From the NCBI GenBank assembly GCA_951406725.2, contig OX597833.1, positions 39,184,001 through 39,248,000 on the forward strand: 64,000 nucleotides of DNA, written 5' to 3'. Within the stretch, counting starts at the first letter, position 1, and every line of letters begins with the position of its first letter. This document shows positions 2,121-62,408 of this stretch, one piece after another. A program made the translations under genes and the position numbers. The notes beneath the pieces were generated by a model. That model searched no databases, was not told the DNA's origin, and worked only from the letters and a program-made list of their open reading frames with translations. This stretch comes from Octopus vulgaris. Its lineage: Eukaryota.

Positions 2121-2167
2121 AATAATAATAATGATGATGATGATGATGATGATGATAATAATAATAC

Positions 2168-2582
2168 AGACTAGACCTAGTGGTGGTGAACAAGGTGCAC
2201 CACATATGCTATATAATTGACGTTGCATGCCCCTTTGACCCACAAATAGTCAAGAAGGAAGGCGAAAAGATAGATAGATACAACCCTCTTAAGTATGAAA
2301 TAGCCTGGCTATGGAAAATGAAGAAGGTGAAGATAGTGCCCATTATTGTTGGGTCCTTAGAAACAGTATCAGAAGGCATCAAGAGGAATATAAAGGAAAT
2401 TAGAATAGAGTGCCCAGTAGAACTGTTACAAAAGGCTTGCCTCCTTGACACAGCCAAAATAATCAGGAAAGTATTAGATAGCTGAAAAGAACGAATAACA
2501 TGGTAACATAGGCTGCATGTAGTAAGCCTGCTATGCATGCAAGACTTCAGGGGCTCCAACAAAAACCTGTGATAAAGAGGAA

Positions 2583-5181: not shown

Positions 5182-5420
5182 CCACCATCATTATTGTCAT
5201 TGCCATCACCAGCGTTATCATAATCATTAAGCATCATCCTTAACCTCCTCCCCTCCTCCTCCCCTCCTCCCCCTCTTCCTCTCCTCCCCCCTCTTCCTCT
5301 CCTCCCCCTCTTCCTCTCCTCCTCCTCCTCATCTTCATTCTCCACACCACAACCACCACATCACCACCTCCACCACCGTCATCGTTGCTGTCGTCGTCGT
5401 CATCATCGTCATCATCACCA
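5052..5420. repeat. (CAT)n/(CCT)n/(CGT)n trinucleotide tracts
   Basis: Direct inspection. Confidence 0.95.
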
Positions 5421-5884
5421 CTGACCACTTCATCATTGTAGTCACCATTGTGTTTATCATCATTTGGGGATCACTTTTGTCTGTAAGGGCCAACATCATC
5501 AAGCCAAATCTAACCCTTATCTTTCAAAACCCTTTCAAATTTATTTATTGTGGCATCCATGTAATGATTCTTGATCTCCTAGAAAAAATAGCTGAATTGC
5601 CTTCAAGTCACACCTTTCTATCTTAAAAAAGAACATATTAAAAAAAAAGGGGTCTAAGATATATGATGATTTGATTAGCTCTTCCAAATAAACCATCATC
5701 AACAGTGAGCTATGAGTGTATCTCTATGTTAGTTGTTCCCATACATTTTTGACTGCTGCTCCTTTGGCACCCAGACTACATTCCTAGCATCCCACCACAC
5801 CCCACCAGAAACATAGGCCTCTTTCAACTGTGGCCTTAAAATTACTGTTTATATCACAAATAAAACTTTACCTAGTTAACCCAT

Positions 5885-6295
5885 TATGTAATATCTTGGC
5901 AGTTAACCACTGATGCAGGTAGTTTATTCCATGCTTCAGCAATTCTGAGTGTGAAAAAATGTTTCTGCAAGCCATGAGTGCCGTGCTGGTTTTTGATTTT
6001 GTAAGCATGTCTATGAGTGTTTGACATACAGAATTCAAAAAGGTGCTCAAGGTTGTTGTTGGAAAGGTGGTGGATAATCTTGTGGGTGTCTGCCGAGTTA
6101 GTTGCCAAACATCGGAGCTTTAATGAGTCCATGCTCAGGGAAGCAAGACATTTAAAGTAGGGTAGATCTCTGACGGCCAGTATTCGTTTAGTTGCATGTC
6201 TCTGAATATTTTCCAGGAGATTGAGATGCTGAGCAAGATAGGTGCTCCAGACTGGTGATGCAAACTATAAATGTAGATGTACCGTAGTCATATAC
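5885..6295 (-). mobile_element. CR1/L2-type LINE RT C-terminal fragment
   Basis: FASPVWSTYLAQHLNLLENIQRHATKRI...SMDSLKLR...QKHFFTLRIAEAWNKLPASVV, typical CR1-clade C-terminal motifs. Confidence 0.8.
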
Positions 6296-6299
6296 ATTA

Positions 6300-6970
6300 T
6301 GAAAGTGCAGGGTAGCAATCAGAAATGTCCTTTGGCAATCAAAAATCCTGATATATTTATTTTCAATTTTGACCTCTGTTCAATGTCATTTTAAAGTGAA
6401 ACCAGTTCTTCCTCCACTATCCTTGTTACCTCATTACTGATATCTAGGTATCATGCAGACTGATATTTTAATGAAAAATAAATGTCCTGAAATCTGTCAG
6501 ACATGTCTTTGTGCAGCTCATCCAAGTGTGAACAATATACATGAATAACACCATCAGGTATGCAATTTCCATCTCTAATTCAGAAAGGCTTAGAAATGAA
6601 AGAACCAATGATGGCTTATGTTGCATTTGAATAACTCTAACTTGGGCAGAAACATGGAGAAGGCTAGTTTTACTTTGATAAGGTTTAACCTCATTTCCTT
6701 GCTGTTGCAAATTAACTTCATTGAACTGTGTGAATATATCTGCCATATAAGCAATGTCATGTTTGATGTTTCTTAGTTCATCACAAAGAACAGAATAAGA
6801 CTCTTGCATGAATTCAACAACTGTTTTTGAAAGAGAAATAGAAACTTTCAAGCTGTTTCTCTTTGACAACCATTGAATTTCTGTGTGCAACAACAGAAGT
6901 TCAAAATCTTTATCATTCTCAGTACAGGGCTGTTGAGACAGTGTTGTAGAAAACAACTGGATCTTCCTCA
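6300..6970 (-). mobile_element. hAT (Charlie/Buster-like) transposase remnant
   Basis: DFELLLLHTEIQWLSK (cf. LLLHTEVRWLSRG) and IAYMADIFTQFNEVNLQQQG. Confidence 0.75.
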
Positions 6971-7137
6971 AATCATATGAATGATTTTAAAAAGATTGAT
7001 CTCCTTTGATAAACCACTAAGTGGAATTATTAACAAACTAACATGAGTTGTCAAGGAGTGGTGGACAAACGCACACATATACCAACACACACACACACAC
7101 ATTTATATATACACACACACCTTTGCATTCACACATA

Positions 7138-8051
7138 TGAGGTGGGGTACCCAAATGAAAGTGGAATTTTGCAATGCTATTTTATTCATTTAGTTTTACA
7201 TGCTTACACTTTTATTGCCTTCAAAATATTCTTCATTTGAAGCAATGCATCAGTCCAGACACGTTTTCTGCTGTTTGAAGCAATGCTGGAACTCTTGCAA
7301 GGCAAAGCCTTTTAAAGCCTCCATCATATTTTTCTTCACCTCTTCAACATTTGTAAATTCCACAGAACCAGCTTTCGTCACCAGTGATGACATTACAATA
7401 GAAAGGTCCAAACGAACTCCTGGCTGTTCTTTCGGTTCATGACAAGTATTCAGTTTTGACTGCTTTTGATCTTCCGTGAGCAAATGAGGCACAAATTTTT
7501 CTACAATTCTTTTCATTTGCAATTCTTCACTCAAAATTCGTTGACAGGATCTCCAGGACACACCAGTCATATCACCAAGTTCATCAATTGTTTAATGATA
7601 ATCCTCCAAGATCAGTTCATAAATTTTCCTGATGCTTTCATTTGTTCGTGAGGTCAATGGTTGCCCTGAATGAGATTGGTCTTCAAGTGACAAGTGACCA
7701 TTCTTGAAGTTTGAAAACCACTCGTAAACTTGTGTTTTGCTCATAGCAGCATCCTTGTAAGCTGTTTGAAGTATGACAGCTGTTTTGACTACTGTTTTCC
7801 TCAACAGAAAACAGAATTTCATGGAAGCACACTGTTCATTTGTTTCAGCCATTGCAAAAATCAATGAACAAGGGAGAAGCACTGCAAAATATAGATGCAC
7901 TACTTGGCAGTATATTTTTGCCCAATGCCGCTGGTCAACAGACTGATGCCTGAGGATCGCATCAAGTACCTTCTAATAGTGGAAGCCTGAACTACAATGG
8001 GCTTGTCTCACAGAGAATGTTTCCAGTTACTTTTGGGTATCCCCACCACCG
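7138..8051 (-). mobile_element. Internally deleted mariner element with both TIRs
   Basis: ORFs 7592-7900 and 7250-7570 give a mariner HTH (EQCASMKFCF...VYEWFSNFKNG...SGQP; KFVPHLLTEDQK) and C-terminus (EYFEG); imperfect TIRs tgaggtggggtacccaaa / tttgggtatccccaccaccg flanked by TA. Confidence 0.85.
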
Positions 8052-8099
8052 TACATATAAACAGTAGTTGGACACAGTTCCATAACCACAGGAGTTGGA

Positions 8100-8935
8100 A
8101 ACAGTTCTACAACTACAGGATGAATCTGATCAAATTAAATGCTTAAATAGTCTTGACTATTAATTCTGTCATGAAGGGAGACCATTGTACTGGTGGATTT
8201 CCAAGATATAGCCCCCCCCCCCCCGATCATCACAGATCCTCCTCCATGGTTAACAGTTGGAAAGAGGCAGTCTGGGTGAAATGCTTCTTTTGGCTGTCTC
8301 CACATGTATACTTGGCTGGTGGTTGGAAATAAGGTAAAGGATGACTCATCCAAGAAAATAATATTCTTCCACTGCACTAGGGACCAATTCTGTAGATTTT
8401 TACTCCACTCTAAATGCTTTGCAATGTTTGTTTTTGAAAGTAGTGGTTTTCTGATTACAGCCCTCCCATGAAATCTAGCTTTGTGCAGCTCCTGGCAAAC
8501 AGTTTTTGTGAAAACTGGGTGCTCAAGGTGGTCCTTAAGCTCAGCATAAATTTTGGGAGCTGTACTTTCATGATTCTTTCTAACAATTCGCGTAAGAATC
8601 CAATGGTCCCTACCTGAAAGTTTTGGTTTTCTTTCAGAGTTTTGTTTTGATGAGGAGGTTGTTTTCATTATGCTAGTGCCTGCCCACAAGCAGCAAAAAT
8701 TTGACCTCTTTGAAAGTCCGATGTATCCGTCATTTTAATGAATTTTGATTACCTTTTTCTCAACAGAAAAAGCAACTTTAGCAAAACATATTAAGAAAAT
8801 AAATCAAAAAACATAATAAATCAAAAATAATAAATAAAAAAACATAAAAATAAACAAGCTTTTGATAGTTTTATAGATATTTCAAGATTATGGTGCTATG
8901 ATGCTAGGTGTTTCCATTATTTTGTCCAAACCCTG
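8100..8935 (-). mobile_element. Tc1-type transposon, 3'-truncated
   Basis: ORF 8135-8689 (RKPLLSK...WKNIIFLDESSF...PTVNHGGGSVMIGG); start MTDTSDFQRGQI near 8733; left TIR cagggtttggacaaaataatggaaacac next to TA. Confidence 0.88.
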
Positions 8936-8944
8936 TATATATAC

Positions 8945-9113
8945 ACACAATGGGCTTCCATACAGTTTCCATCTATGAAATTTACTCACAAGGTATAGGT
9001 TGGTCTGGGGCTGTAGTAGAAAACACTTGCTCAAGGTGCCATGTAGTGGGACTGAACCCAAAATTACTTCTTTACAAAGTGAGCTTTGTAACCACACAGC
9101 AACGCCTGCCCCT
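8945..9113 (-). mobile_element. SINE family A head
   Basis: Family A 5' half, degraded. Confidence 0.75.
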
Positions 9114-9599
9114 GTAAGTGGACAGACTCCTTTGGCATCAGAACTATAGTACGTTAATTGACCTTCAAGCCAATGTGGTGAACCATCTGCAACATGGCAG
9201 GGCTGTACATGTGTGTGCATGTGAATGTATATGTGTGTGTATATGTTTGAGTTTGAACTTGTGTGTGTGAGGTGGGAAGTTTCAGGTCGAGATGATGGTG
9301 ATGGTGATGGGGACATCGAAGGGTTATCATTGGAATTAAACAACCTTTTATTTATAGTGACTCATAACATTCTCTCTTAATCATACCATAATTGATCCTA
9401 TTTCTTCTGGAACTTTCTCTACTGTCCTTCCACTCCCCATTCATCTCTACGTCCAACTTCTACTGCTCACCATTCTATCCTCTATCTCTTTCTCTCTTTC
9501 CTCATTCTCTTCTCCCTCTCTCTCTGTCAGTTCATTTCCTCCTCTCATTCTCTCTACTATTCTTTTAGTCTATCTGCCTGCCAATCTATTTGTCAACTT

Positions 9600-9636
9600 T
9601 ATCTATCTATCTATCTATCTATCAATCAATCAATCA

Positions 9637-9724
<88 letters not shown>

Positions 9725-9751
9725 CAACTTTATCTATCTATCTATCTATCA

Positions 9752-9837
<86 letters not shown>

Positions 9838-9838
9838 T

Positions 9839-9869
<31 letters not shown>

Positions 9870-10092
9870 GTATCTATCTATTTTATAAGTCTAATATTTT
9901 CTTACACTCTTATTCCTTTTCTCTCTCTTACATGTGCTACCTTTCTCACACACTCTCTCTCTCACTCACACTCTCATTCATATACATATCTATGTATGCA
10001 TGCATGTATGTGCATATGCGTGTGTGTGAGTGAGTGTGTGTGTGTGAGTGAGTGTGTGTGTGTGAGTGAGTGTGTGTGTGTGTGTACACACA

Positions 10093-10129
<37 letters not shown>

Positions 10130-10190
10130 TTATATATATGCATATATATATATGCATATATATATATACATACATACATACATACATATA

Positions 10191-10247
<57 letters not shown>
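9600..10247. repeat. (TATC)n, (GT)n and (TA)n microsatellites
   Basis: Direct inspection. Confidence 0.95.
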
Positions 10248-10248
<1 letters not shown>

Positions 10249-10419
10249 AGGTGCATAAGATATTTGAGGACAGATTTATGTTTATAAAAAGATAGATATA
10301 TAATAACAGATAACTTTGTTAACCAAAAAATGGCATGAGGATAAAAATAAACATTCTTTTCTATAATGTTATTCAATAAAGCCACCTTCAGCTTCAACAT
10401 CTGCTTCTATATGAGATCT

Positions 10420-11360
10420 AAATCATTTACATTCTCAAATCAAATGGTCCTGGTTCAGTTTGGACATTACTCTGACTATGGCATCTTTCAAAGGATCTTT
10501 GGTGTTATGGGCATGTTCATTAGCCTCTCTCTCAACAACACTCCAACGGATTTAGATCTGGGGAATTAGGAGGTCAAATGTTAGGGGTTATGTGATCAAG
10601 AAAATTTTCAACCATTCATTCCTGTGTTACTAGAGCCATGTGTGATAGTGCCGAGTTGTACTGAAACACATATGGCCTTCCACTGCATACACTGTCTACC
10701 CAGGGCTTAACAATTATTTCCAGGACCTCAATGTAGGTGGCAGAGTTAACTCTGAGGCCTTGTGGAAAGATGTAAGGAGGCATCACATGTCCGTCATTGC
10801 TGACAATCTCTAAAACCATGACAGTTGCAAGAAATTTTTTATGCATAACACTTGGATCTTCAGAAAAGTCTGCATATAACCATTTGTCATTTGTTCTGTT
10901 AACTTTTTGATCTTGGTTGAAGTTTTTCTCATTTGAGAAAATCCAAATCAAATCTTCTGCTGGATTTTTCAGCTTGTTTAAGAGCTTTTTTGATCTGATG
11001 TAGTGATTTTCTTTTGCTTTTCTGACAAATTGACTTTTCCTCATTATATCTGATGTCTTCGTGGACAACATTTCTGACTGTTCCTTCTGACATGTGGAAA
11101 TCTTTTGCAATTGACCTCATAAGCTTTCTAGGATTGTAATCAATGGTCTGTTGAACTTGCTGGATAAATTCAGGTGTTCTGATGATTTCAGAGCATTTAC
11201 AATACTTATTATGCTTTGATACTGGTGATACATTTCCATCTTAAGTCCCTAACTCCTTACAAACTTTTTAGAGGAAAGATCTGGCACTTTTGAAAATCGA
11301 GATATTTCTAAATTGCTATGCTCAGCCTTTGTAAGCATAATAACAGCATGCCTCTTCATT
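10420..11360 (-). mobile_element. maT/DD37D-like mariner transposase remnant
   Basis: IWIFSNEKNF...VMVLEIVSNDG...FPQGLRVNSATYIEVLE...YVFQYNSALSH...PPNSPDLNPLE, with frameshifts. Confidence 0.82.
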
Positions 11361-11367
11361 TCTTGAG

Positions 11368-11403
<36 letters not shown>

Positions 11404-11410
11404 TACATAT

Positions 11411-11810
11411 ACTCTTTACTCTCTTTTACTCTTTTACTTGTTTCAGTCATTTGACTGCGGCCATGCTGGAGCACCGCCTTTAGTCGAACAAATCGACCCC
11501 AGGACTTATTCTTTGTAAGCCCAGTACTTATTCTATCGGTCTCTTTGCCGAACTGCTAAGTGACGGGGACATAAACACACCAGCATCGGTTGTCAAGCAA
11601 TGCTATGGGGACAAACACAGACACACAAACATACACGCACATATACATATATACATATATACGACGGGCTTCTTTCAGTTTCCATCTACCAAATCCACTC
11701 ACAAGGCTTTGGTCGGCCCGAGGCTATAGTAGAAGACACACGCAGTGGGACTGAACCCGGAACCATGTGGTTGGTAAACAAGCTACTTACCACACAGCCA
11801 CTCCTGCGCC
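11411..11810 (-). mobile_element. SINE family A, near full length with a short internal deletion
   Basis: Lacks about 14 nt (ttgcccaaggtgcc) near 11740 relative to other copies. Confidence 0.9.
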
Positions 11811-11877
11811 TCACACTCCTCACACTCCTGCGCCACACACACACATATATGTATGTGTGTGTGTATATATATAAATA

Positions 11878-11930
<53 letters not shown>

Positions 11931-12500
11931 GTATATACACAAACATGGACATATATATATATGTCAATGTATCTATTCACACACACACACACACACACAG
12001 TATTGCTTATGTGTTTACCTTATATTTCATCTTTTCTGTCAATATTCTCCACCCCCACTACTCTCAGCCTGCCTGCCTGTTTGTCTGTCTGTCTCTCTTT
12101 CACTAAACAAATATGCAAATATACAGATGCATGCTAACATGCTGGCAACAATATGCCCACATAGACACACAAGTATACACACTTTAAAACACAGATATGT
12201 AGATGTATGAATAGATGCAAAAACATAAACACATACACACTTTTGCACGTAACTACACACACATATGCATGAATGCATTTGCACCCACCCACATGCACAT
12301 AAAAATATCAATGCTTGCAAAAATGCATTTACAAATATTCAATTGCATACACAAGTTTACGTGCATATATATATATATATATATATATACACCCATATAC
12401 AAACCCAGACATACCTTCAGAGATGCCTGAAGGAAAATGCCCAATGGCAATTGACATGCACACACACACAACATACACACACATCTACACACACACATAT

Positions 12501-21272: not shown

Positions 21273-21380
21273 ATGCTTAAAACACCTAGGTTTCCCAAGT
21301 GGCCACATATCTAAGTACTAACTAGGCTTGACATTGCTTAACTTTGGTGATGTGGAGAAGAACTGGTGCATTCAACGTTG
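21273..21380 (-). pseudogene. 5S rRNA pseudogene or 5S-derived sequence, 5'-truncated
   Basis: Reverse complement caacgttgaatgcaccagttcttctccacatcaccaaagttaagcaatgtcaagcctagttagtacttagatatgtggccacttgggaaacctaggtgttttaagc follows metazoan 5S rRNA (A box agttaagc, C box region), with CpG decay. Confidence 0.85.
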
Positions 21381-21719
21381 TTTTTTGGAAGACGTATAAG
21401 AACATGCATAGGGTTCTAAATACTGGTTATTTATCATGCAATTTAAATTTAAATCACACACACACACACACGCACACACATACACACACACGTGAGTGTG
21501 TATATATTATGGAATGATTATTATTATTTATTATGTATTATTTATGATTTATTTAGCATTTTTCAATTAATTTTAAAAAAAATTTAATTTATATTTATTA
21601 TAATTTTTCAAAGTTTATTTTTATTATTAATTTTATTTCAATTATTCCTTTTCTTTGTTTATTTATCCTTTATTTTTTTCTTAGCTATGTTTAAGTGTGT
21701 GTATGTGTGTGTGTGCGTG

Positions 21720-34247: not shown

Positions 34248-34285
34248 TCTTTAACGTTTCGAGCCTACGCTCTTCAACAGAAAGA
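34248..34285 (-). ncRNA. Minimal hammerhead motif with CUGUUGA core in the Penelope pLTR
   Basis: tcttt-CTGTTGA-a-gagc-gtag-gctc-GAAAC-GTT-aaaga. Confidence 0.7.
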
Positions 34286-34884: not shown

Positions 34885-35950
34885 TTAGATGAGGAGGGGG
34901 AGAGGGGAGTTAGATGAGGAGGGGGGAGAGTTGAGACCAAATGGCGTATAAGAGCGAAGAGAGAAGATTAATTCCTGTTCACGGCGCAAACGGAAATCTG
35001 GATGGCCTCTGTGTAAGGACAAACCGAACACAGACAGGTGTTGCAAGGAGTGACCGGTGGAGCGGAAATGGCGTGAGACCAGTGTGTCGTTCGCAAGGTG
35101 GATGTCACGAAGGTGTTCCGCGAACCGGTCAGCCAAGCGGTGTCCCGTTTGTCCGATGTACAAGGAATGGCAGAGAGAGCAAGAGACGCAATAGATAATA
35201 TTGCTGGAGGTGCAGGTGAAGGAGTTGATGATGCGATAGGGTCGATGATGGGTGCTAGTGAGGAGGGTGGTGTTGGAGAGGTAAGGGCAAGTGCGGCAAC
35301 GTGGGCGGGAGCAGGGGAACGAGCCGGGTTGGGAGGTAGGGTCAGGGAAGGAGCTATGGACCAAAAGGTCTCGAAGGTTGTGGGCTCGTTTGAAAGAGGG
35401 GAGTGGTCGGTTAGGGAAGAGGTGTGAAGTGGACGGGTCGGACTGGAGATGACGGAAAGCCCGAAGAATGGTGCATTGGAGAGGTAGGGTCGTGGGGTGG
35501 TAAGTGAGGGGAAAAGGAAGGCGGGAGACTACAGGGCGGGTTCGGGGAGAGAGAGCAGATACACGGTCCACGGACCGTGCTCTGGCAAGGGCGGTGTGGA
35601 TAGTAGTGAGGGGGTATCCACGTAGGGTGAAGTGGTGAGCCATACGTTGAGACTGAGTCTCAAAGTCATGGTCGTCACTACAGAGCCTACATAGACGGAG
35701 GAATTGGGAATAGGGGATGGAAAGCTTGGTGTGTTCTGGGTGGGAGGAAGAGAAGTTGAGGTATGAGTGTGAGTCTGTGTGTTTGTAGTGAATGGAGGTG
35801 GTAAGAGTGGAGTGAAGAATGCTAACCGAAATGTCGAGGAAGGAGACAGAGGTGTTGGAGATAGTGGAAGTGAAGTGGAGGGCTGGATGGAAAGATTGGA
35901 TGAAAGAGAGGAAGGAATCTAGATGTTCACGGGAGAGTAAGGTGGCACCG

Positions 35951-35955
<5 letters not shown>
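34885..35955 (-). CDS. Partial Penelope-like polyprotein: RT C-terminus/thumb, Cys linker and GIY-YIG endonuclease
   Basis: Frame is open upstream of the annotated ATG: IIGATLLSREHL...FHPALHFT...SFLDI...YKHTDSHSYLNFSSSHPEHTKLSIPYSQFLRL...CSRPRCRTC...NIIYCVSCSLCHSLYIGQT...RFAEH...PFGLN. Confidence 0.88.
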
Positions 35956-40366: not shown

Positions 40367-40594
40367 CGTTTATATATGAACAAAATAAGAATAAACAAAA
40401 ACAAAAGCAAATTACACGAACGTAAATAAACAAGAGATACAAATATTACAGGCATTTCCCCTCACACACACACTAACTAAACATAGATGCACATAGAGAT
40501 ATACGCATGCACAAATGAAGACACATACAATAGAAATACAAAATGGCTGACGGTTATTAAGGAGAGACACGCAAATAAGAAAGAAGAAAGCAAA

Positions 40595-40639
40595 GGACCA
40601 CTGATGCGGTCACAGGAGTGTGACGAAAGAACTCTGGCC
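40595..40639 (+). ncRNA. Hammerhead-like motif with variant core CUGAUGC
   Basis: ggacca-CTGATGC-g-gtcaca-ggag-tgtgac-GAAAG-aa-CTC-tggcc. Confidence 0.5.
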
Positions 40640-40827
40640 GAAATAAGATTAAGATTAATGTAAAAAATAAATAACGCTGAAGCAAAGTAACACCAAATAT
40701 ATAGTGCGTGTGTTTTTATTGGCTAAACTGGCAAAATGACCATTCTGAAATACAACAATATATATATATATAGGAAATGTACTTGCATAGCAAGTGATTT
40801 GATCTGAGATCGTGTGCTGAAACGAAA

Positions 40828-41120
40828 ACAATTGCAGCGTGGAAGGTGTTTGTAAGCCATTTAAGAAACACACAAAAGCTGTTCGATTCACTTCAACATT
40901 TAAGTTTAATTTGTCAAAATATTTTCAGCGCTTTAAGACCGCGACCTGTTCACTGACAAAAATTCGTGAACAGATGCAGCACAGATTTTTGTCAGTGAAC
41001 TGGTCGTGATCATAAAGCGCCGAAAATATTTTGACAAATTAAACTTAAATGTTGAAGTGAATCGAACGGCTTTTGTGTGTTTCTTAAATGGCTTACAAAC
41101 ACCTTCTACGCTGCAATTGT
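40828..41120. repeat. 293-bp palindrome (136-bp arms, ~21-bp spacer), probable inverted Penelope pLTR pair
   Basis: 40828-40963 is a near-perfect reverse complement of 40985-41120; (TA)n flanks. Confidence 0.9.
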
Positions 41121-41134
41121 ATATATATATATAT

Positions 41135-41530
41135 AGGTGTAGGAGTTGCCGTGTGGTAAGTAGCTTGCTTACCAACCACATTGTTCCGGGTTTAGTCCCA
41201 CTGTGTGGCACTTTGGGCAAGGGTCTTCTACTATAGCCTCGGGCCGGCTAAAGCCTTGTGAGTGGATTTGGTAGATGGAAACTGAAAGAAGCCCATCGTA
41301 TATATGTATATATGTATATGTTTGTGTCTGTGTTTGTCCCCCCAACATCGCTTAACAACCGATGCTGGTGTATTTACATCTCCGTAACTTAGCGGTTCGG
41401 TAAAAGTGACCAATAGAATAAGTACTAGGCTTACAAAGAATAAGTCCTGGGGTCGATTTGCTTGACTAAAGGCGGTGCTCCAGCATGGCTGCAGTCAAAT
41501 GAGTGAAACAAGTAAAAGAGTAAAGAGTAA
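41135..41530 (+). mobile_element. SINE family A, full length
   Basis: Complete copy. Confidence 0.9.
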
Positions 41531-42557
41531 GAGATATATATATACACATACATATATACATACGTATTTATAGAGATATGTATATACATACATGCAAACA
41601 CATCTATCTATACACACACACACACATATACAGACAAACACATATACATATATAAATACATATACATATGTGTGTGTATATGTATGTATATATGTATATA
41701 TATGTACATATATATATATATACACATACATATTTATAGATATATATATATACATACATACAAACACATAGAAATGCACAACAACATCATCATCATCATC
41801 CACAACAACAACCACAATAACAACACAACTTATACACACTTAACAACAGAATATACAGATGCAATATAACACAACCCTCTACATCTAACATCTAAACTCA
41901 CTTGTAAGGTGTACATGTGGGCATCTCGCCTGTCAATATGTGTAGTTACATGCAGCAAAAATGCCACATATATGCACATGCGTACATATATCGCTTAATA
42001 TAAAATTAGTACTGCAGCTGCAGTCCAGGCTGCAGTGCAGTAGGAAATGCATGAATAGGGTCTAATTTCATTGAGTTAAGTGCAGCTGATTGCTTAACAG
42101 GCTAAATGGTGCATTAGCTACATCAGTTATACAGTTTTGTCTGCAGCAATAGTAATTTCAATAGAAAATAGAGTTATGTAGTGCTGTAACAAATGGTTGC
42201 GTATGTATAATTATGCCTCATGTAATCAGGACAAATTTACTTCATCTGTTGGTGGTGATAATGATAGCGGTGGAGGTGGTAGTTGGTAGGTGGTGGTGGT
42301 GGTGGTGGTGGTGGTGGTAGATGTATAGGTAATATAGGTGATGATGATGATGATGATGATGGTGGAGACAGTGTTGTTGGTGTTCTTTGTGTTGTGGTTG
42401 TTGTTGTTGTTGTTGTTGGTAGTATTGTTGTTGATGTTGATGGTGTGTGGTGGTAGCAGGGCTAGTGTGAGTGGTGGTGATAAAAATGATGATGATGATG
42501 ATGATGATGATAGTGTTGGTGGTGGCAATGATAATAGTTGTGATGTTGGTGGCGGTG

Positions 42558-47519: not shown

Positions 47520-47755
47520 GCATCGTTTTAGTCTTCAGGTTCCACAATTTGCTGATTTCTATTTAAAAATATTTATACTTGCTCAGTTTTTGGTATGTCT
47601 TGACAGATACGTTTATATCGATGGGGACAGTCATATCAATGAGGAGGCATGATTTTTGTCTGAAGTCTTTTAATATGTCTGGCCTATTTGCATCTACCTT
47701 TCTGTCAGTTTGAATAGTGAAGTTCCAGAGGAGTGAGATGTGATCATTTTCCAGC
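47520..47755 (-). mobile_element. R4/Dong-like RLE LINE fragment
   Basis: LENDHISLLWNFTIQTDRKVDANRPDI...CLLIDMTVPID...KLSKYK. Confidence 0.88.
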
Positions 47756-47758
47756 ATC

Positions 47759-47831
<73 letters not shown>

Positions 47832-47848
47832 GTATTATTATTATTATT

Positions 47849-48397
47849 GAGTGATGGAGCAGTGTATGCCATGAAAGTGATACTGGGGTGAAATATACAA
47901 AACCCAGTATACCCATCATGACTACCTGTCTGATAAGGTTACACTAGGCACATGCATCACAACCATATGTGCACGACATGGTGATCTCATATCAAGATAA
48001 TCAGCACATGACCTTGCAGGTGGGGCACAGTTAAAATTTTCTTCTGGTCGAGTAGCCCATCCCGCTCAAAAGGTCCCTGAATAAGGATTTTTTAAGGATG
48101 TTGAATGAACCACCTATGTTTCCAGAGGTGAATTATTCAAACCCCAAAGAATCCTTCTCAATACATGGCTATGATGCTGCCCCACTACTTCTGCTCGTGA
48201 TCAGAGATGCACATATTGTCAGCCACTAAGGGACATGGTCAAGTGGTTATAGTCAAACAACTGACAAGCAAATCTGTGGTTTTGAACAGAATATTTACTG
48301 TAGCCCATCTTTTATATCAAAACAAAATAAAACAATCTACATGATAACAGTTAAAATCAGAAGCCATGAGAGCCACTGCCTGGTACTGCAAAAGGGC

Positions 48398-49435: not shown

Positions 49436-50230
49436 CATTATTATTCAGTAGTCTTATTTTTATCACAGGCTTTCAGTGCACTACTGAGGGCAGCTCTGTC
49501 TACCTTGGTTTGTTGTAGTGTTCTTATTTTCACTGTATTGAAAGTGCCTTACATAGGATGTATGCAGTGTCTAGTAGTGGTATTTCCTGTATGTTATATA
49601 TATTCGTAAGTCCTGGTGTTTTGGTTATGCATTTGTCTGAATGTTTTTTAATCATACCTAATGCACCTATTATTATAAGGATTGTTTCTGTTTTTAGACT
49701 CCACATTTGAGTCACCTCTATTTCCAGATCTTTGTATTTTGAGAGTTTCTTCATTTCTTTTAGAGATACTTTGTCTCTGTTGGTATTGATACATTGATTC
49801 GAAGGCATTTTTTACTTCATGATCTCTGACAACTATATCTGGTCTATTAGCCTTGATTTCTCTATCTGTGTGCATTGGCATACCCCAGAGTATAGTTACT
49901 TTCTCATTTTTTGAGACCTTTTCTTGGGTGTGCCTACACCATCTTTTTTCTGTTGTTATTCCATAGTGTTGGCATAACTCCCAATGTAAATAAGTCTCAA
50001 CTCTGTCATGTTTGTGGATATATTCCTTCTTAGCCAGGACTGAGAAGCCAGAAACAATATGGTTTATTGTTTCTTTCCCACCACCACATTCTGCAGTTAC
50101 TTATATTATTTTCCATTATGTGTTTTTGATGATTTCTGGTGGGAAGGCTTTGCTCTTGTGCTACAATTAAAAATCCTTCAGTCTCTTTGATTCCTGAGCT
50201 TCTCTGCCATTGTTGGCATTTTACTTTGTC
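48975..50230 (-). mobile_element. R4/Dong-like LINE 3' part: zinc-knuckle region, RLE and long 3'UTR
   Basis: ETEGFLIVAQEQSLPTRN...CRM...ETINHIVSG...HTDREIKANRPDIVVRD...KLSKYKDLEIEV...IIIGALG...LLDTAYILCKAL*; (TTA)n both sides. Confidence 0.9.
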
Positions 50231-62004: not shown

Positions 62005-62408
62005 TGCAGGAGTGGCTGTGTGGTAAGTAGCTTGCTTACCAACCATATGGTTCTGGGTTCAGTCCCACTGCATGGCACCTTGGGCAAGTGTCTTCTACTA
62101 TAGCCTTGGGGCGACCAAAGACTTGTGAGTGGATTTGGTAGACGGAAGCTGAAAGAAGCCCGTTGTATATATGTGTGTATATATATATATATAGATCGCC
62201 ATGTTGATTCGCTAGCTTCTGCATGCATTTTTTTTTTCTCTCCTTGTTTCTTTCCGTGTTTCTTTTCTGTGTATCTTTCTGTTGAAGAGCGTAGGCTCGA
62301 AATGTAAAAGACTTGTTTTATTTATATTCCTGAGCGCCATACTAATATAATTGTTTGTTTGTATTCCATCTGCCTTCGTCTTTTGTTTATTTTCATAAAG
62401 CTTCCCGT

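What the first reader, a model, noticed from the sequence alone, without database searches (positions are those of the whole stretch)
40828..41120. Palindrome carrying two hammerhead-like motifs with a swapped G3:C8 core
Seen: each arm contains tttgtca-GTGAAC(A/T)-stem II (gg(t)cg(c/t) ... gcgc(c/t))-GAAA-ata-TTT-tgacaaa, at 40910-40960 (-) and 40988-41038 (+). This gives a 7-bp stem I, GAAA and a self-complementary stem III (AATATT). The core reads GUGAACA instead of CUGANGA, so positions 3 and 8 are both changed. Known: C3 and G8 form a Watson-Crick pair in the active hammerhead fold, so G3:C8 is a compensatory swap; Penelope pLTRs carry minimal dimer-forming hammerheads and often occur as inverted pairs. 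Inference: a Penelope-associated family with a covaried core that a CUGANGA motif search would miss.
Basis: partly seen in the sequence, partly recalled or inferred. Interest (0 to 1): 0.8.

Follow-up and report, generated by a model that had tools for sequence, protein, structure and literature searches.

The report
Swapped-core hammerhead in octopus retroelement
The palindrome is two back-to-back end pieces of a very abundant octopus repeat, likely a Penelope-like jumping gene, each laid out like a small self-cutting "hammerhead" RNA with two paired core letters swapped (G3:C8); the family's version would likely cut only slowly, cutting is untested, and these two copies are damaged.

Summary
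The arms (136 nt, 7 mismatches) each carry a minimal type I hammerhead layout with G3:C8; only the left reads GUGAACA (right: A9U). The repeat is very abundant: 5,272-11,984 contigs were laid in each of three runs. Family-majority letters give a perfect 5-bp stem II with G10.1:C11.1 after one extra nucleotide, the published signature of Penelope-like element (PLE) hammerheads. The arm's tail begins an ORF that Octopus protein records extend into PLE-type RT motifs (matched by eye); (TA)n flanks, a one-sided 55-nt tail and the inversion also fit a PLE. A neighbouring C3:G8 motif differs from it by five compensatory pair changes. Limits: the variant table was blind over the core, so G3:C8 is seen in one insertion event plus one contig only; cleavage is untested; the inverted pair cannot form the dimer in cis, since a read-through RNA folds into one long hairpin; and many copies span the predicted cut site. 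I found no natural G3:C8 hammerhead in ten paper searches, but the key 2017 paper was not held. This scan noted G3:C8 before, in phages and protist PLEs. Verdict: new variant of a known kind.

The parts
40773..40968 (-). Left unit of the repeat family (family B): pseudo-LTR with hammerhead layout, ORF start and tail; lacks about 8 nt of the family's common inner end
   Evidence: loose ends at 40773/40777 and 40961/40968
40910..40960 (-). Minimal type I hammerhead layout, core GTGAACA (G3 at 40953, C8 at 40948), extra G, predicted cut after U17 (40917); G10.1-U11.1 and a 10.2/11.2 mismatch in this copy
   Evidence: family-majority letters at 40927/40928
40773..40860 (-). First 29 codons of an ORF (ATG at 40860) that Octopus protein records continue into PLE-type RT motifs
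40773..40827 (-). 55-nt one-sided tail (ORF +34 to +88), present on the left unit only
   Evidence: loose ends at 40773, 40777 and 40831; tail concept from PMC8557442 and PMC11167929
40969..40971 (.). 3-nt linker at the head-to-head junction
   Evidence: one search compared with the loose-end consensus behind 40968
40972..41120 (+). Right unit: starts at the family's common inner end and stops at ORF +33 (no tail)
40988..41038 (+). Second hammerhead layout, core GTGAACT (G3:C8, A9U), U17 at 41031; decayed
40758..40772 (.). (TA)n flank, left
41120..41135 (.). (TA)n flank, right; a SINE-like repeat follows
40596..40639 (+). Neighbouring family A hammerhead layout with C3:G8 (core CTGATGC, A9C in this single copy), used as comparator

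Best explanation
The palindrome is a head-to-head pair of short end pieces of a very abundant octopus repeat, likely the pseudo-LTR of a Penelope-like retroelement, and each piece carries a minimal hammerhead layout with a G3:C8 pair that would, in the intact family sequence, likely cleave slowly and only as a dimer or with protein help. Shown: layout, abundance, majority stem II, ends, (TA)n flanks, tail ORF and its continuation in Octopus proteins. Inferred mechanism: the element's RT starts copying inside the ORF start at one of two sites (about +30 and +84/+88) and runs to a common 5' end about 20 nt upstream of the core, giving 150-205-nt units in (TA)n; two such cDNAs from one source were joined head to head here. 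The RNA copied was not cut at the hammerhead, which fits a slow ribozyme. In the family RNA, G3 pairs with C8 so that the 2'-OH at position 8 stays placed for acid catalysis, and two copies pair through AAUAUU to build stem III. The two copies here are dead: they are decayed and, if transcribed through, fold into one long hairpin.
For: Layout far above chance. Family-majority letters restore GTCGC/GCGAC: C11.1 in 83/90/91% and A11.2 in 98/98/99% of depth in X3/X6/X8. No variant of 3% or more at G12, A13, A14, A15.1, stem III or U17, which lie in the visible part of that table. The extra nucleotide after A9, G10.1:C11.1 and a palindromic stem III are the min-HHR features of PMC4209133. One contig of X3 with majority letters at 40928 and 40935 reads the core strand as in the window (table 5c). 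Against family A, 5 of 13 pairs differ on both sides and stay Watson-Crick (2.3, 2.5, 3:8, 10.4, 15.2), 7 are the same (with the majority letter at 11.2) and 1 is broken in A. Tail peptide P0003 matches the start of O. sinensis P0004 (93% identity, E 1.8e-8) and O. bimaculoides P0005 (84%); O. vulgaris P0006 overlaps P0004 (78%) and continues through PKF, TDKSG and PPLYGLRKDHK, which resemble the GxKF, DKG and first RT motifs in PMC8557442 (by eye). C3G/G8C partly restores cleavage in a lizard PLE hammerhead (PMC11167929) and generally (PMC8495972); uncut RNA was the main template there.
Against: The variant table cannot see 40939-40968, so fixation of G3 and C8 is unmeasured; the two arms share a rare letter and count as one event. 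No within-family compensatory change was seen, and most non-CpG sites outside the motif are also below 3%, so conservation may reflect youth, not selection. The extra nucleotide is G, where the published consensus has H. The AAUAUU self-duplex is weak (-0.2 kcal/mol). The two other hammerhead families in the window also have off-consensus cores with no compensation (A9C in 1 of 1 copy; A6U in 2 of 2), as relaxed selection would give. P0006 had no Pfam match, no PDB match below E 1.3 and no usable model (pLDDT 34.5); no full-length RT/GIY-YIG ORF was found for this family. The raw-read run gave 0 reads. Similarity of the A and B peptides is weak (8/19, E 0.011 for one comparison).
Confidence: 0.6

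Rival explanations
1. Vestigial ribozyme: the motif descends from a PLE hammerhead and G3:C8 is family-wide, but it no longer cuts; it is carried along in the pseudo-LTR or kept as a fold or protein-binding element.
For: Contigs with loose ends at the common 5' end upstream of the cut site number 144/244, 111/205 and 93/149 of those at the outer tail end in X3/X6/X8, and no loose-end row at the cut site is among the 18 of 700 shown. All three families in the window have off-consensus cores. Hammerhead mutants did not affect insertion in vitro (PMC11167929); Naiads proliferate without canonical hammerheads (PMC8557442).
Against: The only two changed core positions in the left arm are the two that pair, and they remain complementary (my rough odds under random drift: about 1 in 230, before allowing for the many families scanned). 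Summed contig depth falls 3.0- and 3.2-fold across the cut site in X6 and X8, though only 1.2-fold in X3 (contig depth is a poor measure). Uncut templates are also the rule for a PLE hammerhead that does cut.
Confidence: 0.28
2. The swap is confined to this insertion or a minor subfamily, while the family majority has another core.
For: The core is invisible in the variant table, and the arms are one event.
Against: One independent majority-type contig has C8, A9 and the extra G, and its next letter fits G3 (table 5c). Two private transversions at exactly the pairing positions are unlikely when most non-CpG sites vary below 3%.
Confidence: 0.08
3. A fold-back or MITE-type DNA element, or a chance hairpin, whose inverted repeats imitate a hammerhead.
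For: The locus is a long palindrome between TA runs; part of the family shows a 6-nt inverted match (GAGATG) at its two ends (loose-end consensus); Rfam matches here are only hairpin-type miRNA models below their cut-offs.
Against: The family is laid as a single-arm unit with mixed flanks at both ends, and strand-switch joints lie at many different places. The arm ends inside an ORF start conserved in Octopus records. The layout occurs 0.01-0.02 times per shuffled window.
Confidence: 0.04

Closest known systems
Minimal type I hammerheads (min-HHR) of metazoan Penelope-like elements, including the U3-A8 variant of Schistosoma Cercyon elements (Cervera and de la Pena 2014, PMC4209133)
   Same: Type I layout, extra nucleotide between 9 and 10.1, G10.1:C11.1, palindromic stem III, U17, position in a pseudo-LTR, many solo copies, pairs on opposite strands close together, a covaried 3:8 pair.
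   Different: The 3:8 pair is G-C (reported natural covariation is U-A); the extra nucleotide is G, not H; stem I is 7 bp (4-5 reported for the Schistosoma families); no activity shown.
Engineered C3G/G8C double mutant (Poseidon element PAc of Anolis, PMC11167929; general statement in PMC8495972; G3-C8 remark in PMC3884650)
   Same: Same core pair; partial rescue of cleavage in a PLE hammerhead; hammerhead next to the ORF start; tail between two RT start sites in the ORF.
   Different: Here it is the natural sequence. The ATG lies 56 nt after the cut site rather than at stem II, the two 3' ends lie at about +30 and +84/+88, and the tail is 55 nt rather than 30-40.
Natural hammerhead core variants (Perreault et al. 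2011, PMC3088659; A6C, PMC7151607)
   Same: Natural departures from CUGANGA, including a compensated 3:8 pair.
   Different: Section 8 of PMC3088659 lists U3-A8, A6C, insertions and U15.1-A16.1; it does not mention G3-C8 (figures not seen).
Non-LTR retrozymes (PMC7229834, listing only; bioRxiv 10.64898/2026.07.22.740005, part 1 of 5 read)
   Same: Short, non-coding, hammerhead-bearing derivatives of PLE pseudo-LTRs.
   Different: Retrozymes are head-to-tail tandems with a hammerhead in each unit on one strand; this locus is an inverted pair and ends in an ORF start.

Membership tests
PLE minimal type I hammerhead | Stem I joins the 5' and 3' ends around the core | tested here: met
   7 bp in both arms; P 0.70-0.99 in the isolated left unit, about 0.05 in the right unit
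PLE minimal type I hammerhead | U4 G5 A6 A9 | tested here: met
   Left arm 4 of 4; right arm has A9U
PLE minimal type I hammerhead | C3:G8 (or the reported U3:A8) | tested here: not met
   G3:C8 in both arms; the Watson-Crick pair is kept, the letters are not. Filed as a variant for this reason.
PLE minimal type I hammerhead | One unpaired nucleotide between 9 and 10.1 | tested here: met
   G in both arms; published consensus H
PLE minimal type I hammerhead | Stem II closed by G10.1:C11.1 | tested here: met
   C11.1 in 83-91% and A11.2 in 98-99% of depth; imperfect in both window copies
PLE minimal type I hammerhead | G12 A13 A14 A15.1, U16.1, H17 and palindromic stem III | tested here: met
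   Both arms; no variant of 3% or more at 40917-40926 in three runs
PLE minimal type I hammerhead | Core fixed across the family, with covariation | tested here: inconclusive
   Table blind at 40939-40968; one event plus one contig; five compensatory changes only against family A
PLE minimal type I hammerhead | Self-cleavage after position 17 as a dimer | not testable with these tools
   No assay; no raw RNA reads offered
Rfam hammerhead families | Score at the gathering threshold | tested here: not met
   No hammerhead match
Penelope-like element | Pseudo-LTR that ends inside the ORF start, with a one-sided tail | tested here: met
   Ends at ORF +33 and +88; family ends at 40773/40777 and 40831
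Penelope-like element | Inverted or partial-tandem copies; microsatellite/AT-rich targets | tested here: met
   opposite-strand and go-back joints and AT-rich loose ends
Penelope-like element | Telomerase-like RT in the ORF | tested here: inconclusive
   PKF, TDKSG, PPLYGLRKDHK in P0006 match described PLE motifs by eye; no profile, PDB or fold confirmation; P0006 ends before the catalytic motifs
Penelope-like element | GIY-YIG endonuclease | not testable with these tools
   No full-length ORF retrieved; no genome held
Non-LTR retrozyme | Head-to-tail tandem of units, each with a hammerhead on one strand | tested here: not met
   Inverted pair; no tandem array of the unit here
MITE / fold-back DNA element | Fixed terminal inverted repeats defining the mobile unit | tested here: not met
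   The family unit is one arm; only a 6-nt inverted match at its ends in part of the contigs

The most novel reading that the evidence does not exclude
One of the most abundant octopus retroelement families fixed a working but deliberately slow G3:C8 hammerhead. Because its RNA is mostly copied uncut, the pseudo-LTR itself spread as a 205-nt SINE-like unit. With three of three Penelope-like families in this window off the CUGANGA consensus (G3:C8, U6, C9), octopus genomes would hold a large, overlooked set of detuned or protein-dependent hammerheads that standard searches miss.
Probability: 0.25. Interest if true: 0.7.

Novelty: new variant of a known kind. Interest (0 to 1): 0.45.

Why it matters
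The C3G/G8C swap is a classic laboratory proof of the active hammerhead fold, and I found no report of it in nature in the papers searched. A natural version in a very high-copy animal repeat gives thousands of copies with which to ask whether PLE hammerheads are under selection to cut, to cut slowly, or not at all, which is still open (PMC8557442, PMC11167929). It also shows that CUGANGA and Rfam searches undercount PLE hammerheads. The locus itself is an ordinary dead insertion, and this scan has met the swap before in phages and protist PLEs.

Tried and rejected
No whole genome is held, so BLAST against the genome and a copy alignment were impossible. Pattern scans found nothing: metagenome contigs 0, viral contigs 0, prokaryote genomes 0; P0006 had no relative in viral contigs. 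Run X23 (raw DNA reads) gave 0 reads laid, which is no test. Seven runs guessed to be RNA hold 0.38-0.44 of the words and one metatranscriptome 0.12; none was laid, so they are not evidence of expression or cleavage. A search for full-length ORFs (570-2000 aa) with P0004 1-222 gave 0 of 563 candidates. Pfam on P0003-type frames, P0005 and P0006, the PDB search, the atlas (P0004 part: nothing at 0.9; P0006: eukaryotic clusters with DUF8422 on 16-41% of members) and single-sequence folding did not name the protein; the frame for the tail was off, corrected; no fold search was run on the poor model. The family C duplex energy used coordinates one base off and is not used. Rejected: the lack of a variant row at G12 as a sign of selection (other CpG positions, e.g. 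40812, also lack rows); the lack of rows over the core as proof of fixation (blind zone); the 34885-35952 RT/GIY-YIG remnant as this family's ORF (its 3' region carries family C); the junction piece resembling the core as a separate feature (it is unit end plus linker). The supplement of PMC8557442 holds none of the family A or B strings tried. Lunse et al. 2017 (PMC5785218) and Przybilski and Hammann 2007 (PMC1986816) are not held and may bear on novelty and rates.

Full report
Observation. The window shows a 136-nt inverted repeat, 40828-40963 and 40985-41120, with 7 mismatches, 5 of them inside the motif. Each arm has a 7-bp stem I, a 7-nt core, one extra G, a stem II, GAAA, the palindrome AATATT and U at position 17. 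G3 and C8 are in both arms; A9 only in the left. A G3:C8 descriptor matched only these arms; 100 dinucleotide shuffles gave 0.05-0.13 matches per window, and 0.01-0.02 with a stem I of 7 bp or more. Rfam has no hammerhead match. The motifs are not unusually stable on their own.

The family. No genome is held, and the window has no third copy. Of 24 runs listed, 20 hold part of the stretch. I laid 4 of them on 40765-40980: the raw-read run gave 0 reads; the three contig sets, labelled as three organisms, gave 11,984, 8,149 and 5,272 contigs. This shows a very abundant repeat but gives no copy number. Depth-weighted majority letters differ from the left arm at 40927 (83/90/91%), 40928 (98/98/99%) and loop position 40935 (59/66/72%). 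The first two turn stem II into five Watson-Crick pairs, GTCGC/GCGAC, closed by G10.1:C11.1 after the extra nucleotide. These are the features that PMC4209133 lists for PLE minimal hammerheads, except that its consensus has H at the extra position. Other variants in the motif are 2-7%: one keeps a G-U pair in stem I, two are CpG changes in stem II, the rest lie in loop II. GAAA, stem III and U17 have no row at 3%.

The main gap. The table's distance-to-end values never fall below about 30 and follow the distance to the end of the laid part, so 40939-40968, which holds the core, cannot show variants. Both arms share the rare letter at 40928, so they are one event. The only further copy seen is one X3 contig in the between-joint table with majority letters at 40928 and 40935; it reads C8, A9 and the extra G, and its next letter fits G3. 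Family-wide G3:C8 is therefore likely but not measured. The family is homogeneous outside the motif too, so its conservation is no proof of selection.

Penelope link. Read outward, the left unit ends in an ORF start (P0003). O. sinensis P0004 begins with the same peptide (93%, E 1.8e-8), runs about 220 residues and then passes into a methyltransferase domain, which I read as a chimeric gene model. O. bimaculoides P0005 has the same start. O. vulgaris P0006 overlaps P0004 at 78% and continues through PKF, TDKSG and PPLYGLRKDHK, which resemble the GxKF/Y, DKG and first RT motifs described and aligned in PMC8557442. That match is by eye; Pfam, PDB, atlas and folding did not confirm it and no full-length ORF was found. 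The architecture agrees independently: (TA)n on both sides, an inverted copy at the 5' end, and a tail on one side only (PMC8557442). The two 3' ends fall at about +30 and +84/+88 of the ORF, as expected if RT starts at two internal sites in the ORF start (PMC11167929). The host is therefore most likely an Octopus species.

How it likely works. Loose ends mark a common 5' end about 20 nt upstream of the core; the right unit starts exactly there (40972). Contigs ending there are about 0.55-0.6 of those ending at the outer tail end in all three runs (144/244, 111/205, 93/149; only 18 of 700 rows were shown, none at the cut site). So many copies were made from RNA not cut at the hammerhead (inference). 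The same was found in vitro for the lizard element, whose hammerhead cuts only with its protein and whose C3G/G8C double mutant is partly active. One result points the other way: summed depth falls 3.0- and 3.2-fold across the cut site in two runs, 1.2-fold in the third, which could reflect copies ending at the cut or library bias. G3:C8 keeps the pair that positions the 2'-OH of nucleotide 8 (PMC8495972). PMC3884650 remarks that a G3-C8 variant does better with G17 than C17; this family has U17, but U17 is common in PLE hammerheads, so I draw nothing from it. The locus itself cannot act as a dimer: read-through RNA folds into one hairpin (-224 to -230 kcal/mol) with stem I probability 0.0 on both strands.

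Neighbours as controls. A core-tolerant scan found 6 hits in 64 kb, 5 in three repeat families. Family A (40601, +) has C3:G8, the same extra G and a near-identical stem II; against family B, 5 of 13 pairs change on both sides and stay Watson-Crick, including 3:8. The descriptor demands stems, so this is partly circular, and A-B kinship rests on about 60% motif identity (my count) and a weak peptide match. Family C (34280 -, 62279 +) lies behind an RT-thumb/GIY-YIG remnant (Pfam E 0.039) and has A6U in 2 of 2 copies. All three families are off consensus, which supports the vestige rival as much as the novel case.

Literature. Ten searches gave no report of a natural G3:C8 hammerhead or of hammerheads in octopus family B. 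Seen: PMC4209133 parts 1-2 of 4 and supplement passages; PMC3088659 passages and section 8; PMC6765202 passages and part of section 11; PMC11167929, PMC3884650, PMC8495972, PMC7151607, PMC11014351, PMC8967140, PMC6962438 passages; PMC8557442 and PMC13282606 passages and supplement searches (PLEs are 6.83% of the O. vulgaris genome, 190 families; no mention of hammerheads); bioRxiv 10.64898/2026.07.22.740005 part 1 of 5. Not held: Lunse et al. 2017 and Przybilski and Hammann 2007, seen only as reference titles; the first could already list such a variant. Figures and repeat libraries were not seen. Hammerhead numbering and the labels SINE-like and Neptune-type are from my own knowledge. Earlier scan notes report G3:C8 in phages and protist PLEs; none was found for this sequence or genome; I did not test them.

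Verdict. A real, PLE-type minimal hammerhead layout with a natural G3:C8 pair in a very abundant octopus repeat; dead at this locus; family-wide fixation likely; activity unknown. New variant of a known kind, interest 0.45.

Noticed in passing
window 40596-40639 (+), within 40378-40760: Second hammerhead layout (family A), C3:G8 with A9C, extra G, 6-bp stem II; ATG at 40736; its 3' part matches 1166-1258 on the other strand, whose tail peptide weakly resembles that of family B.
   Followed up: partly
window 34248-34285 (-) and 62274-62311 (+): Family C hammerhead layout with core CTGTTGA (A6U) in 2 of 2 copies, 90% identical over 218 nt; the first lies about 600 nt behind a PLE ORF remnant. 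A possibly fixed U6 variant; not found by name in the passages read or in earlier scan notes.
   Followed up: partly
window 34885-35952 (-): 5'-truncated PLE ORF remnant, 355 open codons: RT thumb region, CxxC linker and GIY-YIG (Pfam E 0.039), starting at a (TA)n run.
   Followed up: partly
window 41132-41560 and more than 20 other places: Abundant SINE-like repeat that follows (TA)n runs, often directly beside PLE ends (also at 34145-33696).
   Followed up: no
window 40827-41121: If transcribed, the pair gives about 136 bp of double-stranded RNA, a likely substrate for A-to-I editing or small-RNA pathways (own knowledge); Rfam scores it only as a generic miRNA-like hairpin below cut-off.
   Followed up: no
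loose ends at 40777 and 40968: Part of the family shows the same 6 nt (GAGATG) in inverted orientation at its two ends; unexplained.
   Followed up: no
protein P0004 (XP_029654200.2): Octopus sinensis gene model that joins about 220 residues of this element's ORF to a methyltransferase domain; probably an annotation chimera.
   Followed up: partly
window 21275-21391 (-): 5S rRNA match just at the gathering score (38.5 bits), next to a SINE-like copy; perhaps a 5S-derived repeat head.
   Followed up: no
window 2165-2485, 5884-6264, 7250-7972, 8135-8734, 10616-11240, 47563-47943, 49530-50100: Decayed fragments that look by eye like Dong-R4/RTE/CR1-type LINE and Tc1/mariner transposase ORFs.
   Followed up: no
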